This document shows positions 1 to 7,706 of a stretch of DNA of 8,159 bases, one piece after another. The notes under the pieces were generated by a model. That model searched no databases. It was not told where the DNA came from and saw only the letters and a program-made list of their open reading frames with translations. The stretch lies in IMG/VR virus record IMGVR_UViG_2671180710_000005; one strand, 5' to 3'. This DNA comes from a virus (Duplodnaviria > Heunggongvirae > Uroviricota > Caudoviricetes). The number at the start of each line of letters is the position of its first letter. Positions within the stretch are counted from its first letter, which is position 1. The position numbers were made by a program, and so were the translations under genes.

Positions 1-25
1 TCTCCAGGATTCCCGGGGCGATTCA
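1..25 (-). mobile_element. Outermost 25 bp of a probable IS3-family insertion sequence (IS629/IS1203-like end); the IS body would lie left of the window
   Basis: Positions 1-25 (TCTCCAGGATTCCCGGGGCGATTCA) are the exact reverse complement of 8135-8159. On the minus strand it reads 5'-TGAATCGCCCCGGGAATCCTGGAGA, which begins TG and, from memory, differs by one base from the IS629 terminal repeat. Family assignment is unverified. Confidence 0.55.
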
Positions 26-28
26 GTT

Positions 29-385
29 TTAATTGTGCTTTATTCCTTCAAGCGTTGCCTTCATACCAACCAAAGAAATGTTTAGCTCTCCAACTTTCTC
101 AGGGCTATATAATTCAGAATGAAGCCAATATTCTGATTTATCTAAACATCTTTTAGCCAGCTCTCGATCAAAGTCTACGACTTGGGAAGACGCTTCATAC
201 CAAAGCCTATAAAGTTTTTCTTCTTCGTTTGGGTTATTAGGCTCACCACGTTTTAATTTTTCAGTATATAAAATTGTTGAACAAATCGCAGGAGTTAATC
301 CAGTGATTGCCCTCTGCCGCAGATCGGATTTGTTTGTTATCCACCCCAACAGACGATCTCCCATCCATGTGATAATTGTATCCAT
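29..385 (-). CDS. Hypothetical protein, 118 aa, no recognisable family
   Basis: ORF with ATG at 385-383 and TAA at 31-29. Plausible SD (AAGAAGGG) 7 nt upstream of the ATG. The stop lies 3 bp from the IS-like end. No motif recognised. Confidence 0.5.
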   Translation of the reverse strand: MDTIITWMGDRLLGWITNKSDLRQRAITGLTPAICSTILYTEKLKRGEPNNPNEEEKLYRLWYEASSQVVDFDRELAKRCLDKSEYWLHSELYSPEKVGELNISLVGMKATLEGIKHN

Positions 386-846
386 GCTTTAGCCCTTCTT
401 AGTAAATAGTGTGTAGGGCGACTGAAGGACCGAGTTTATGCTTTTTCGCATTGCTTTCAGTTAGTACACCGGTATCGCACCGGAAACAATCCTACGGCAA
501 ATTGGTTGTCTGACCTCTCGGTTTTTCGTGCATTAACCGATACCCACTACAGTCTCGGCGAAAGCTGCACACCCCCAGGGTGTACTGGTAGCACTCGGCA
601 CAGCCTAGCACGCCACTTTCTTCTCACTATCCAGTCTAATTTTATCCCCTAGTCAGACACTCAGATGTAGTGCTCCGCAGCGGCATGCGGGGGAATACAA
701 AAACTCGGACAAAATTGGGCCCTCCTTTTTGAATCACTCGCGGGGATGTAGTTATTAATACATGGAAAAAGATCTGTTTTCAAATCCAACATTATATGGT
801 TTCAATACCACGGGGTGGCTATGTGTTTCTCATTGTTAATTGGAAT

Positions 847-1170
847 CTACTGTAATCGATCCGAACGTAAATGCGGCAAAACTCGACTCCACTTATCATC
901 CTGCCACGGCCGGAATTTTACATGTGCCGTTTCTCTGGCAAGGATTGCCTGTGCCTTATTGAGTATCTGGGGATATTCTTGCTCGATAGAAGTGAAGCGA
1001 CCAGCTTCACGATGCTCCGCAACCTGAAGAAGAGGAGTAACGTTCTGGTAGGTAATTAACATCACATTCCCTGCTCGCCATAACCAGGCGAGTGTGCAAA
1101 GTTCGTTATCAGTGAATTGTTTTGTGATTGGGGATTGTTGAACTGCTAGAACGAGAACGCCAGCATCCAT
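847..1170 (-). CDS. Hypothetical protein, 107 aa, no recognisable family
   Basis: ORF with ATG at 1170-1168, preceded by AGGGA 6 nt upstream. Same strand as the flanking genes. The overlapping plus-strand ORF 815-1027 is Cys-rich and looks spurious. Confidence 0.45.
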   Translation of the reverse strand: MDAGVLVLAVQQSPITKQFTDNELCTLAWLWRAGNVMLITYQNVTPLLQVAEHREAGRFTSIEQEYPQILNKAQAILARETAHVKFRPWQDDKWSRVLPHLRSDRLQ

Positions 1171-2808: not shown

Positions 2809-2993
2809 GGTGACACCTGCTAACGTATGCTTTTATAAACCTTAGTGGTGGGATATAATTTTTGTTTAATTTTTATTTAAAAAAACAATTAAGGTCACAT
2901 TATCTTGAATATACAACAATAATCGTATTGCAATTTTCTTACGCCATAATCTTGAAAGCACAAAAGAACACATAAAAAAATAAAGACATTAAC

Positions 2994-3033
2994 AAAAAGC
3001 ATAAAACGAGGCTCATATAAATATAAGAGCCTC
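2994..3033 (-). terminator. Putative intrinsic terminator downstream of emrE
   Basis: 7-bp stem GAGGCTC/GAGCCTC (3008-3014 and 3027-3033) with a 12-nt AT loop. On the minus strand it is followed by a T-rich tract (GTTTTATGCTTTTT), about 30 nt after the emrE stop. Confidence 0.45.
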
Positions 3034-6330: not shown

Positions 6331-6421
6331 GTTAATTTGAATCAAGATTAAAACTATGGTTGTTTTTAGTTAACAACCATTTTCGTTTGATGAAATAAAA
6401 CCTTGGTTGTACATTTGGACT
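6331..6421. promoter_or_regulatory. OR region: operators with divergent pR (toward cro) and pRM (toward cI)
   Basis: 25-bp palindrome ATGGTTGTT-N7-AACAACCAT at 6356-6380 and a further GGTTGT half-site at about 6401-6413. Candidate pR on the minus strand: -35 TTGTTA, -10 TTTAAT. Candidate pRM on the plus strand: -35 TTGATG (6387-6392), -10 TACATT (6410-6415), placing the start near the cI ATG (leaderless, as in lambda). Confidence 0.6.
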
Positions 6422-7111
6422 ATGAAAACAACACTCTCAGAAAGACTTAAAGAAGCCAGATTAGCGCGAGGCCTTACACAAAAGGCGCTTGGGGATTTGG
6501 TCGGGGTTAGCCAGGCTGCTATTCAGAAAATCGAAACAGGGAAAGCTAATCAAACAACTAAAATCGTGGAGATCGCGAACGCTTTGGGTGTGCGCGCAGA
6601 ATGGTTATCTTCTGGCGTTGGAAATATGTCAGACAGTACAGTGCAACCAATACAATCAACTGTCAGCCATTCCAAATACTTCAAGATTGACGTTCTTGAT
6701 ATAGAAGTCAGTGCTGGGCCGGGAGTCATCAACCGTGAGTTTGTAGAAGTTCTACGCTCGGTTGAGTACTCGTTTGACGATGCTCGTCACATGTTCGATG
6801 GTAGGAAGGCGGAAAATATCCGCATCATTAACGTGCGTGGTGACAGCATGTCAGGAACGATCGAACCAGGTGATCTGCTGTTCGTTGATATCACAGTTAA
6901 ATCTTTCGACGGTGATGGTATCTATGCGTTTCTGTACGACGACACAGCCCATGTAAAGCGCCTGCAAATGATGAAGGATAAGCTGCTGGTCATCTCTGAT
7001 AACAAAAGCTACTCACCGTGGGACCCGATCGAGAAAGACGAGATGAACCGGGTGTTCATCTTCGGTAAGGTTATTGGGAGCATGCCGCAGACATATAGGA
7101 AGCATGGGTAG
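6422..7111 (+). CDS. cI: CI-type phage repressor (N-terminal XRE-family HTH, C-terminal S24/LexA-like autopeptidase domain), about 229 aa
   Basis: The N-terminus (LSERLKEARLARGLTQKALGDLVGVSQAAIQKIETGK) is a classic HTH. An Ala-Gly cleavage site (EVSAGPG), a Ser in RGDSMSGTI and a Lys in HVKRLQ match the LexA/CI autocleavage module. Start set at ATG 6422; the track ORF begins at an upstream TTG at 6407. Confidence 0.9.
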   Translation: MKTTLSERLKEARLARGLTQKALGDLVGVSQAAIQKIETGKANQTTKIVEIANALGVRAEWLSSGVGNMSDSTVQPIQSTVSHSKYFKIDVLDIEVSAGPGVINREFVEVLRSVEYSFDDARHMFDGRKAENIRIINVRGDSMSGTIEPGDLLFVDITVKSFDGDGIYAFLYDDTAHVKRLQMMKDKLLVISDNKSYSPWDPIEKDEMNRVFIFGKVIGSMPQTYRKHG

Positions 7112-7232
7112 TACCAATTAAAAATTATCAACTGGGCATTGTGCTCATTCAGTAAAGAACTAATTCCTATCTTTGCTCTAGGTAGTAATATTAAGCCACC
7201 GCAATAATATCTTTACCTAACGGCGTAAGAAT

Positions 7233-7259
7233 CCCGGTCACCGTGCCGGGTTTTCTTTT
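7233..7259 (+). terminator. Putative intrinsic terminator downstream of cI
   Basis: GC-rich hairpin CCCGG-tcaccgtg-CCGGG (7233-7250) followed by TTTTCTTTT. Confidence 0.6.
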
Positions 7260-7369
7260 GCCCTCCCCTCATCACACACACCGTTAAAAAAACCACCATA
7301 ACCTCGCTTCAGTTATCGCTATGCGATTCAAGTCACAAAATAAATCCATCCTAAATACAACCAGTTATA

Positions 7370-7430
7370 TCTAAAACAACCAATAAAACAACTTTTGTTG
7401 TTGACGATAAAACAACTATAGTTTTAAATA
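7370..7430 (+). promoter_or_regulatory. OL operators and pL-like promoter
   Basis: Palindromes AACAACTTTTGTTGTT (7387-7402) and AAAACAACTATAGTTTT (7409-7425) share the GTTGTT/AACAAC half-site with OR. -35 TTGACG (7401-7406), 17-bp spacer, -10 TTAAAT (7424-7429), directed toward the early-left genes. Confidence 0.5.
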
Positions 7431-7706
7431 AGTTCATCGCAACAACACAACGATACGGCAACTACCTGATTCACCGTTGCGATGACCGCTTAGATCCGCA
7501 GTTTGAATTTCAGCAGGCTTCGGGGAGTGCGAGGGGTGAAACGGACGCGTGAACGTCGGTGTGACCAGCTGAAATTAACTCAACATTTCATACCTTAGTC
7601 GCTTCAACGAGGCGGCTTAGTTATGACAACCGGCGGCCATCCACCGCCTGAATACGCGCAGAAGTCTCTATATGTTCAGCAGCCCAGCTTACGGGCAGGA
7701 GTTTTT

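What the first reader, a model, noticed from the sequence alone, without database searches (positions are those of the whole stretch)
386..846. 460-bp ORF-free stretch between two orphan ORFs: candidate structured RNA or decayed gene
All six frames are full of stop codons here, yet same-strand ORFs with plausible SD sequences lie on both sides. Composition is patchy, with GC-rich blocks and short hairpins (for example GGTATCG at 470-476 pairing with CGATACC at 538-544, and ACACCC/GGGTGT at 576-590). That is unlike the AT-rich recombinase gene upstream, and 460 bp is long for a spacer within an apparently co-oriented gene string. It could be a non-coding RNA, a regulatory region, or the remnant of a degraded gene. 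I could not assign it to any RNA class by eye.
Basis: seen in the sequence. Interest (0 to 1): 0.6.

Follow-up and report, generated by a model that had tools for sequence, protein, structure and literature searches.

The report
Structured RNA gene in lambdoid prophage
The "empty" stretch is an unannotated gene for a roughly 330-nucleotide, intricately folded non-coding RNA carried by lambda-like phages of E. coli and its relatives. Its function is unknown, but large structured RNAs are rare and this one sits in an easy experimental system.

Summary
The ORF-free, GC-richer gap is real. It is neither a spacer nor a dead gene. Window 416-747 (minus strand) is a conserved ~332-nt module found in 159 of 5426 complete E. 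coli genomes, never annotated. It also occurs in four phage records, about 66 IMG/VR contigs and 28 metagenome contigs, and in Klebsiella, Enterobacter and Obesumbacterium prophages. It always lies in the nin region, co-oriented with the early-right operon, while its flanking genes change.

Across 33 distinct sequences, a model of 103 base pairs (18 helices, two long-range pseudoknots) is 96.5% paired, against 36-44% for shifted controls. Compensatory double changes occur at 29 pairs, against 4-8. G·U outnumbers A·C by 313 to 10, so the minus strand is the folded one.

Conserved -35/-10-like hexamers sit at fixed spacing upstream. Most relatives, but not this window, have an intrinsic terminator just downstream.

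There is no Rfam, tRNA or tmRNA match, no protein remnant in any frame, no conserved ORF, no tandem repeat and no antisense target.

Best reading: a new family of large structured ncRNA, packaged as an accessory ("moron") cassette ahead of interchangeable small cargo genes. Its function is unknown. I favour a trans-acting folded RNA; a cis-acting leader or sensor for the cargo is the main rival.

The parts
416..747 (-). Gene for the ~332-nt structured ncRNA. RNA nt n = window 748-n; nt 1 = A of AUCCCCGCGAG; nt 332 = end of CAGUCGCCC.
   Evidence: Conserved block in all relatives. The 103-pair model is 96.5% paired, with 29 compensated pairs. RNAalifold independently finds most of the helices. 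G·U:A·C is 313:10 on this strand.
778..783 (-). -35-like hexamer TTGAAA of the RNA's own promoter (inferred).
   Evidence: TTGAAA, TTGTAT or TTGATA is kept at the same position in every lineage while the 17-nt spacer sequence varies. The consensus scanner does not call it.
755..760 (-). -10-like hexamer (TATTAA here, preceded by TG; TTTAAT or TTAAAT in relatives). The conserved RNA starts 6-7 nt downstream.
   Evidence: Fixed 17-nt distance from the -35 and 6-7 nt from RNA nt 1 in all lineages. It is weak by consensus rules because it lacks A at hexamer position 2, so this part is inferred.
742..747 (-). P1 5' strand (nt 1-6). It pairs with nt 99-104 (window 644-649) and closes the 5' domain.
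   Evidence: 99% paired; mostly invariant, with one double change. Also predicted by RNAalifold.
659..681 (-). Hairpin H3 (nt 67-89). Its loop carries pseudoknot-1 arm CACUAC (nt 76-81, window 667-672).
   Evidence: Stem 98.7% paired with 2 compensated pairs.
536..559 (-). Hairpin H5 (nt 189-212). Its loop GUAGUG (nt 198-203, window 545-550) pairs with the H3 loop to form pseudoknot 1 (loop-loop kissing).
   Evidence: H5: 6 of 9 pairs show compensatory changes. PK1: 100% paired, 3 of 6 pairs compensated (CACUAC/GUAGUG, CACCAC/GUGGUG, CGCAAC/GUUGCG, CAUCAC/GUGAUG).
651..658 (-). Pseudoknot-2 5' arm GUCUGACU (nt 90-97). It pairs with GGUCAGAC (nt 233-240, window 508-515).
   Evidence: 100% paired in 33 sequences. 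C96:G234 becomes U:A in the most divergent member, L110, and two pairs change on one side. Weaker support than PK1. It competes with an alternative lower stem of H3.
560..620 (-).
   Evidence: H6: 3 of 6 pairs compensated. H7/G-C clamp: 3 compensated. HA: 5 compensated, including a wholly different stem sequence in L110.
420..425 (-). H10 3' strand (nt 323-328). It pairs with nt 112-117 (window 631-636) and closes the 3' domain.
   Evidence: 98% paired, with one-sided changes only (C-G, U·G, U-A).
429..522 (-). H11 (nt 226-231/314-319) encloses the invariant AGGUCAGACAACC segment, the irregular arm ending in hairpin H8 (nt 265-279, GYGAK loop, window 469-483) and hairpin H9 (nt 298-309, GAAAAA loop, window 439-450).
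   Evidence: The 226:319 pair occurs as A-U, G-C, C-G and G·U. The 269:275 pair occurs as A-U, U-A and C-G.
386..415 (-). 30-nt spacer with a Shine-Dalgarno-like AAGAAGGG. There is no terminator here, unlike in most relatives.
   Evidence: Sequence. Comparison of downstream junctions. Terminators are called in relatives L060 and L058.
29..385 (-). Cargo ORF 'c13' (118 aa, PHROG 12412, unknown function), probably co-transcribed with the RNA.
   Evidence: In 47 of 48 IMG/VR loci this ORF follows the RNA at the same 30-nt distance. The same holds in Enterobacter and Obesumbacterium. A 51%-identical homologue sits elsewhere without the RNA. The AF2 model is a 4-helix bundle (pLDDT 74) with no significant fold match.

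Best explanation
What it is (about 0.9). Window 416-747, minus strand, is the gene for a ~330-nt, highly structured non-coding RNA that belongs to no described family. Two domains (nt 1-104 and nt 112-328) are tied together by two long-range pseudoknots.

How it is packaged (inferred from sequence, about 0.6). It is an accessory 'moron' cassette in the nin region of lambdoid (pro)phages of Enterobacterales. It has its own sigma-70-like promoter. In most relatives an intrinsic terminator follows. After that comes a small interchangeable cargo gene with no promoter of its own. In this window the terminator is missing, and the RNA would run straight into the 118-aa ORF.

How it most likely works (inferred, about 0.4). 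The RNA is made from the prophage and acts in trans through its fold. It would be a protein-binding scaffold or decoy, or possibly a catalyst, rather than a base-pairing regulator. The terminator, where present, meters read-through into the cargo.

Shown: conservation, fold, strand, terminators in relatives, changing neighbours. Inferred: promoter use, expression in lysogens, trans action.
For: Conservation and mobility.
- 159 of 5426 E. coli genomes carry it, with nothing annotated under the match.
- Klebsiella phages match at 78% identity with different neighbours.
- Other hits: 65 IMG/VR contigs with the first pattern plus two further contigs from later scans, and 28 metagenome contigs; Enterobacter and Obesumbacterium prophages.
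- It is always downstream of the replication genes, on the operon strand, with at least 3 upstream and at least 5 downstream gene contexts.

Fold, on a sequence-only MAFFT alignment.
- 103 pairs are 96.5% paired, against 36-44% when partners are slid.
- 29 pairs carry double changes, against 4-8 in slid controls.
- 0 of 500 shuffles reach the observed values.
- RNAalifold gives 81 pairs, 11 of them compensated.

Strand. There are 313 G·U cells against 10 A·C cells.

Transcription signals.
- -35 and -10-like hexamers sit at a fixed 17-nt spacing, with the RNA starting 6-7 nt downstream, in all lineages.
- A 7-bp terminator hairpin with a U-run follows directly after the RNA in relatives.
- One relative (L011) has RNA plus terminator and no cargo.

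Not something else.
- No Rfam match; no tRNA or tmRNA.
- No protein remnant; no conserved ORF; no repeats.
- No complementarity longer than 14 nt to its own phage genome, and no antisense hit in 50,697 phage records.
Against: - There is no transcript evidence of any kind.
- The promoter is not called by the consensus scanner. Its -10 lacks the usual A at position 2, so the RNA could instead be processed from the long early-right transcript.
- This window's variant has no terminator, so here the RNA may exist only as a 5' leader of the 118-aa ORF mRNA.
- Single-sequence folding energy is unremarkable.
- The family is narrow (76-100% identity, a handful of lineages). Many counted cells are therefore inherited rather than independent events.
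- The structure was derived from these same sequences.
- The RNA is almost always directly followed by a promoterless accessory ORF, which fits a cis role at least as well as a trans role.
- No partner protein or target was identified.
Confidence: 0.75

Rival explanations
1. Cis-acting leader or sensor. The folded RNA is the 5' untranslated regulatory module of the accessory gene that follows. It would control read-through of the terminator, or translation where no terminator exists, in response to a ligand, protein or infection signal.
For: - The RNA is directly followed, within 30-60 nt, by a same-strand ORF with a ribosome-binding site but no room for a promoter.
- 47 of 48 c13 loci and 8 of 9 c26 loci carry the RNA upstream at a fixed distance.
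- The terminator lies between RNA and ORF in most lineages.
- Near-identical RNAs head different cargos, i.e. a conserved front end with swapped payloads.
Against: - No conserved antiterminator alternative was found. The GUCGCC/GGCGGU idea breaks in the Klebsiella lineage (reading).
- The terminator is absent in the c13 arrangement.
- L011 has RNA plus terminator, then a core nin gene 110 nt away, with no cargo.
- Distant homologues of both cargos occur without the RNA.
- The RNA is larger and more knotted than known attenuators.
Confidence: 0.25
2. RNA antitoxin or partner of a toxic cargo protein. This would be a type III-like toxin-antitoxin or abortive-infection pair laid out as promoter, RNA, leaky terminator, toxin.
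For: - The gene order matches the ToxIN layout (established knowledge of type III systems; layout here).
- Cargos are small proteins of unknown function, some with transmembrane segments (c26, c64). One (c71) has an R-x4-H motif seen by eye.
Against: - There are no tandem repeats in the RNA.
- One RNA precedes at least five unrelated proteins, whereas type III antitoxins are toxin-specific.
- The cargos have no PADLOC or Pfam hit.
- RNA without cargo and cargo without RNA both exist.
Confidence: 0.07
3. Remnant of a degraded protein-coding gene, or a pair of real small protein genes as annotated in phage Turner.
For: The deposited annotation of phage Turner places two short hypothetical CDS here. 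The neighbouring 107-aa ORF is itself a gene fragment.
Against: - Ten six-frame pieces have no match below E about 0.08 in Pfam or PHROGs.
- No ORF is conserved in position across lineages.
- Substitutions are paired across helices, not codon-patterned.
- RefSeq annotates nothing here in 159 genomes.
Confidence: 0.02
4. A DNA-level element, such as a recombination site for the adjacent serine recombinase, an origin, or a single-strand initiation site, rather than an RNA.
For: It lies near ybcK in this window. G·T pairs would also be tolerated in folded single-stranded DNA.
Against: - ybcK is absent from most other contexts of the element.
- Promoter-like and terminator signals bracket it in the same orientation.
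- There are 18 helices with two pseudoknots and no repeats or iterons.
Confidence: 0.03

Closest known systems
Large structured bacterial/phage ncRNAs of unknown function (ROOL, GOLLD, OLE, raiA class of 'ornate' RNAs)
   Same: It is several hundred nucleotides long with a multi-helix fold that includes long-range pseudoknots. It is supported by covariation, carried by (pro)phages, has no coding capacity and no known function.
   Different: It matches none of their Rfam models. It is smaller (~330 nt) and restricted to lambdoid prophages of Enterobacterales. It is not next to tRNA genes. Whether it multimerises is untested.
Lambdoid-phage 'morons' (promoter-gene-terminator accessory cassettes such as bor, lom, rexAB)
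   Same: It is a self-contained cassette inserted between core genes. It has different neighbours in different phages, its own promoter-like signal, a terminator in most relatives, and a base composition unlike its flanks.
   Different: The product is a structured RNA, not a protein. In many phages it is coupled to a downstream promoterless ORF.
Type III toxin-antitoxin RNAs (ToxI/ToxN and relatives)
   Same: The order promoter, non-coding RNA, terminator, small protein gene, in a mobile element.
   Different: There are no tandem repeats, no conserved endoribonuclease partner, and one RNA is paired with many unrelated proteins.
Prophage RNAs that exclude other phages or tune the host (STnc6030 of BTP1, DicF, IpeX, StxS)
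   Same: Non-coding RNAs expressed from prophages as accessory functions. STnc6030 shows that a long prophage RNA can confer superinfection exclusion (bioRxiv 10.1101/787010).
   Different: Those act by base pairing or antisense. Here no antisense target exists in its own phage or in the phage database, and selection acts on a complex fold.
Riboswitch/attenuator leaders and processive-antitermination RNAs (HK022 put, EAR)
   Same: A folded RNA in an operon, upstream of a terminator and of the genes it could control, located in the early operon of a lambdoid phage.
   Different: It is far larger and appears to have its own promoter. No conserved terminator/antiterminator switch was found. No ligand-related gene set is present, and the terminator is absent in this window.

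Membership tests
Any Rfam 15 family (4227 models, including RNase P, tmRNA, 6S, group I/II introns, riboswitches, ROOL, GOLLD, OLE, known enterobacterial and phage sRNAs) | Covariance-model score at or above the family's gathering threshold | tested here: not met
   No hits in the whole window at gathering thresholds. A permissive scan of 330-900 gave only two chance-level hits (E 6.6 and 8.6, scores 13-17 bits against thresholds of 41-55).
tRNA / tmRNA | Cloverleaf or tmRNA architecture recognised by ARAGORN | tested here: not met
   No genes in the window.
Type III toxin-antitoxin antitoxin RNA | Tandem direct repeats of a ~34-36-nt unit | tested here: not met
   TRF and the direct-repeat search found nothing in 300-950.
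Type III toxin-antitoxin antitoxin RNA | A cognate, conserved toxin gene immediately downstream | tested here: not met
   The downstream gene varies: c13, c26, c71, c63/c64, a 177-aa ORF, or none. No Pfam or PADLOC hit.
Retron msr-msd / DRT-type ncRNA | An adjacent reverse-transcriptase gene | tested here: not met
   No gene is annotated as a reverse transcriptase, and no neighbour is conserved across contexts. The neighbours that were scanned have no RT domain.
Transcriptional riboswitch / attenuator | Folded domain followed by an intrinsic terminator | tested here: inconclusive
   A terminator is present directly after the RNA in most relatives. It is absent in this window and in all c13-type loci.
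Transcriptional riboswitch / attenuator | A conserved, mutually exclusive antiterminator pairing | tested here: not met
   The only candidate (GUCGCC with the terminator's 3' arm) would not sequester the 5' arm. It is broken in the Klebsiella lineage (GUCGAC) (sequences).
Prophage moron cassette | Own promoter | tested here: inconclusive
   Conserved TTGAAA/TTGTAT/TTGATA, a 17-nt spacer, TTTAAT/TTAAAT/(TG)TATTAA, and 6-7 nt to RNA nt 1 in all lineages. The consensus scanner rejects it. No 5'-end data exist.
Prophage moron cassette | Insertion between core genes, with different neighbours in different phages | tested here: met
   Context tables.
Cis-antisense / base-pairing prophage RNA (STnc6030-like) | Extended complementarity to a phage or host transcript | tested here: not met
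   The best match to its own 48-kb phage genome is 14 nt (E 0.05). No other hits in the phage or plasmid collections. The host genome was not searched for short seed matches.
Pseudogene | Detectable protein similarity in some frame | tested here: not met
   Ten stop-to-stop pieces of 30-80 aa had nothing below E about 0.08 in Pfam or PHROGs.
Self-cleaving or other ribozyme | Catalytic activity | not testable with these tools
   It matches no ribozyme model in Rfam. Activity needs an in vitro assay.

The most novel reading that the evidence does not exclude
The RNA is the conserved sensing or controlling module of an RNA-based phage-exclusion (abortive-infection) cassette. A folded RNA, made from the prophage, would gate expression or activity of interchangeable toxic effectors: two-pass membrane proteins, a protein with an R-x4-H motif, and small helical proteins. 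This is the way protein sensors are combined with swappable effectors in known defence systems. Alternatively, it is a new ribozyme class. Either way it would be a new functional class of large RNA living in E. coli phages.
Probability: 0.15. Interest if true: 0.9.

Novelty: categorically new. Interest (0 to 1): 0.72.

Why it matters
Large RNAs with many helices and long-range pseudoknots are few. Those understood so far are mostly ribozymes or the cores of ribonucleoprotein machines.

This one is carried by viable lambda-like phages (for example phage Turner) and by about 3% of sequenced E. coli. It also occurs in Klebsiella, Enterobacter and Obesumbacterium. Its function can therefore be tested directly with standard coliphage genetics.

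It is invisible to current annotation. RefSeq leaves the stretch blank, and one phage record fills it with two spurious small proteins.

If it controls or partners the variable genes behind it, it would reveal an RNA-centred accessory or defence module. Even if it is only a stable prophage RNA, it is a new family for RNA databases and for structural study.

"New" here refers to the RNA family and its fold. Its packaging as a moron is conventional. I could not check whether short fragments of it are among the unnamed candidates (29-151 nt) of an IMG/VR-wide screen (PMC10690425).

Tried and rejected
- **Rfam.** Gathering and permissive scans found nothing.
- **ARAGORN.** Nothing.
- **Pseudogene test.** Six-frame pieces against Pfam and PHROGs found nothing. 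The conserved-ORF test was negative.
- **Single-sequence folding.** z-scores were uninformative on both strands.
- **Promoter scanner.** It finds no promoter in the window or in relatives, because the -10 lacks A at position 2.
- **Species-representative genomes.** Two pattern scans gave 0 hits, so no distant relatives came from there.
- **Extra IMG/VR patterns.** They returned the same set plus L071 and L160.
- **Plasmids.** No match.
- **All-by-all covarying-column listing.** Too noisy, because there are few lineages. Replaced by helix-based models.
- **RNA-RNA duplex scan against the phage genome.** Timed out. Replaced by a short-word BLAST, which found no target.
- **Terminator/antiterminator switch and SD-sequestering idea.** Neither is conserved.
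- **boxB/nut-like reading of the GAAAAA hairpin.** The loop is a hexaloop and it varies (GAAAAC, GAAUAC), so this was dropped.
- **CsrA-sponge idea.** Five GGA motifs is about the number expected by chance; dropped.
- **Cargo proteins.** Pfam, PADLOC, PHROGs and PDB sequence searches plus an AF2 model of c13 gave no function.
- **Literature.** Keyword and exact-sequence searches found no description of this RNA.
Rejected.
- **Coordinate error.** An early error of 12 nt in my own coordinates (alignment A3) was corrected in A4, A5 and A7.

Full report
**Setting.** The window is the early-right region of a DLP12/lambda-like (pro)phage, read on the minus strand. The gene order is cI (6407-7111, +), cro-like, YdaT/cII-like, O, P, ren, emrE, the serine recombinase ybcK (1282-2808), a 107-aa ORF (847-1170), the gap (386-846), and a 118-aa ORF (29-385). 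The same DNA is 100% identical in E. coli chromosomes and in the complete genome of Escherichia phage Turner.

**Checking the observation.** The gap is real.
- Inside it are only a 48-aa TTG ORF and a 43-aa ATG ORF; two further short plus-strand ORFs (starting at 815 and 840) only overlap its right edge.
- GC is about 0.50, against 0.31-0.41 around it.
- The ACACCC/GGGTGT hairpin exists at 569-583 and turns out to be a conserved helix.
- The GGTATCG/CGATACC pairing (471-477/538-544) is a coincidence of this lineage. It is 68.8% paired across the family, and its bases belong to two better-supported helices.
- The upstream "orphan ORF" is only the C-terminal domain of a P22-type antirepressor, i.e. 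a truncated remnant.
- Length, ORF-freeness and single-sequence folding energy are not significant on their own (z = -0.79 for the minus strand, -0.19 for the plus strand).

**The gap is a conserved, movable module.**
- The stretch 400-790 is present in 159 of 5426 complete E. coli genomes, with no annotated feature under it in any listed record.
- It occurs in 4 of 50,697 phage records (two E. coli phages and two Klebsiella phages, the latter at 78% identity) and in no plasmid.
- Exact-pattern scans found it on 65 IMG/VR contigs, plus two more divergent ones, and on 28 metagenome contigs. They found none in the one-genome-per-species collection.
- Following the downstream protein located it also in Enterobacter bugandensis and Obesumbacterium proteus prophages.
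- In every locus it lies downstream of the replication genes, on the operon strand. The genes on either side differ: at least three upstream and five downstream contexts.
- The conserved block is window 416-747 plus about 40 nt upstream.

**It is a folded RNA, read from the minus strand.**
- Alignments made from sequence alone (MAFFT) show blocks of invariant sequence alternating with segments that change in pairs.
- I built a model of 103 pairs in 18 helices. RNAalifold independently recovers most of it, with 81 pairs of which 11 are compensated.
- On 33 distinct sequences the model is 96.5% paired, against 36-44% when the 3' partners are slid by 1-3 columns.
- 29 pairs show changes on both sides (4-8 in slid controls) and 217 cells do so (13-29 in slid controls).
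- None of 500 column shuffles reaches the observed values (earlier versions).
- G·U pairs outnumber A·C by 313 to 10. The opposite strand would therefore be only 85% paired.
- The best-supported elements are hairpin H5 (6 of 9 pairs compensated), H6 (3 of 6), hairpin HA (5 of 8, with an entirely different stem sequence in the divergent member L110) and H7.
- A loop-loop pseudoknot between nt 76-81 and nt 198-203 is also well supported. It occurs as CACUAC/GUAGUG, CACCAC/GUGGUG, CGCAAC/GUUGCG and CAUCAC/GUGAUG.
- A second long-range helix, nt 90-97 with nt 233-240, is 100% paired. It has one double change (C:G to U:A in L110) and competes with an alternative lower stem of H3.
- The fold has two domains (nt 1-104 and nt 112-328) stitched together by the two pseudoknots.
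- Caveats: the lineages are few and related, so many counted cells are inherited, and the model was derived from these sequences.

**Transcription signals.**
- Upstream, every lineage keeps a -35-like hexamer (TTGAAA, TTGTAT or TTGATA), a 17-nt spacer of variable sequence, an A/T-rich -10-like hexamer (TTTAAT or TTAAAT; here TG-TATTAA), and then 6-7 nt to the first conserved RNA base.
- In the window these are 783-778 and 760-755.
- The simple consensus scanner does not accept this promoter because the -10 lacks A at its second position. The promoter is therefore inferred, not shown.
- Downstream, most lineages have a hairpin plus U-run directly after the RNA. The scanner calls it in L060 and L058, with a 7-bp stem of which 5 pairs are G-C.
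- The window's lineage, and all others where the 118-aa ORF follows, have no terminator. There the ORF starts 30 nt after the RNA.

**What it is not.**
- No Rfam 15 family, at curated or permissive thresholds.
- No tRNA or tmRNA.
- No protein remnant in any frame and no ORF conserved across lineages.
- No tandem or direct repeats.
- No antisense target in its own phage genome, where the best match is 14 nt, or in the phage collection.
- Keyword and exact-sequence literature searches found no description.
- An IMG/VR-wide screen reported thousands of unnamed short candidates of 29-151 nt. Its lists were not available to me, so a fragmentary prior prediction cannot be excluded.

**Relation to the genes behind it.** The RNA is nearly always followed at once by a small same-strand ORF that has a ribosome-binding site but no room for a promoter.
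- The ORF is the 118-aa c13 here. In 47 of 48 IMG/VR loci that encode c13, the RNA sits upstream at the same distance.
- Behind a terminator it is often a 178-aa two-pass membrane protein, c26. Eight of the nine c26 loci have the RNA.
- Other cargos are a 183-aa protein with an R-x4-H motif, a 95-aa plus 162-aa pair, and a 177-aa protein.
- In L011 there is no cargo, only a terminator and then a core nin gene.
- Near-identical RNAs head different cargos. Distant homologues of c13 (51% identity) and c26 (43%) occur without the RNA.
- None of the cargos has a Pfam, PADLOC or PDB-sequence match. c13 models as a generic four-helix bundle.
- The RNA is therefore the constant front end of a cassette with a swappable payload. 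Neither part strictly needs the other.

**Mechanism.**
- Shown: a conserved, strand-specific, complex fold; terminators in relatives; changing neighbours.
- Inferred: its own promoter and expression from the prophage.
- Favoured reading (about 0.4): the RNA acts in trans through its shape as a scaffold, decoy or catalyst. The reasons are that selection acts on an elaborate tertiary architecture, it can occur alone with a terminator, and it has no base-pairing target.
- Main rival (about 0.25): it is a cis-acting leader or sensor that gates the cargo. This fits the tight adjacency, but it lacks a conserved switch and fails where there is no terminator or no cargo.
- A type III-like antitoxin role, a pseudogene and a DNA-level element are unlikely, for the reasons given under the rival explanations.

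**Novelty and verdict.** It is a new family of large, doubly pseudoknotted non-coding RNA in lambdoid phages of Enterobacterales. It is unannotated in RefSeq and mis-annotated as two small proteins in one phage record. Its packaging as a moron is ordinary. The RNA itself matches nothing known, and its function is open. Because it sits in E. coli phages, the decisive experiments are simple: transcript mapping, fold mutants, phage challenge, read-through reporters and pull-downs.

Noticed in passing
window 847-1170 (-): The 107-aa ORF is only the C-terminal domain of a P22-type antirepressor (Pfam P22_AR_C, E 1e-15). It is 86-88% identical at DNA level to the matching stretch of 'Rha protein' genes in other phages. 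It is a truncated gene remnant, not an intact orphan gene.
   Followed up: partly
window 1-28; L001 4758-5971; L005 4432-5645: Only 3 genomes match window bases 1-25. In the source-like strain an IS3-family element lies just beyond the left end of the window. In another strain (NZ_CP185789) an IS3 sits a few bases upstream of the RNA's -35 and has replaced the emrE-ybcK block. IS3 insertions seem to cluster around this cassette.
   Followed up: no
window ~2866-3016 (-): RefSeq annotates a frameshifted ylcJ pseudogene between emrE and ybcK. The emrE-ybcK block is markedly AT-rich (GC 0.31-0.39), like a separately acquired island.
   Followed up: no
L071 4024-4355 (-); L063 3066-3396: These look like decayed copies of the RNA. 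L071 carries uncompensated changes in both pseudoknots and in H11. L063 is cut off at about nt 300 by recombination. The RNA therefore appears dispensable for the phage.
   Followed up: partly
L110 2117-2140 and L071 5' end (RNA nt -2 to 17): In the most divergent lineage the 5' end forms a perfect local hairpin, AUAUCUC-UCGC-GAGAUAU. A weaker version (AUCCC...GAGAU) exists in all members. It competes with helices P1 and P2, so it may be an alternative conformer.
   Followed up: no
window 416-422 and relatives (RNA nt 326-331 plus terminator): The RNA's 3' end GUCGCC resembles the 5' arm of the downstream terminator (ACCGCC or GCCACC). Either could pair with the terminator's 3' arm. This is not conserved in the Klebsiella lineage, and its meaning is unclear.
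   Followed up: partly
L003 3400-3951 (-), 183-aa ORF; L093 5704-6237, 177-aa ORF; L060 c26: The cargo genes behind the RNA include a protein with an R-x4-H motif (IRLRHNLLH), a protein starting MKNIIIDSNAW, and a two-pass membrane protein. All lack any family or PDB-sequence match. They look like accessory or defence-type morons, but this is unproven.
   Followed up: partly
window 7112-7622: This is another stretch of about 510 bp without a convincing ORF, downstream of the cI-like repressor gene, where a leftward early leader or N-type region would be expected. Not examined.
   Followed up: no
L102 (phage Turner) 42698-42817 and 42867-42998: The deposited phage annotation places two short 'hypothetical protein' CDS inside the RNA gene and its promoter. 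These are probably annotation artefacts.
   Followed up: yes
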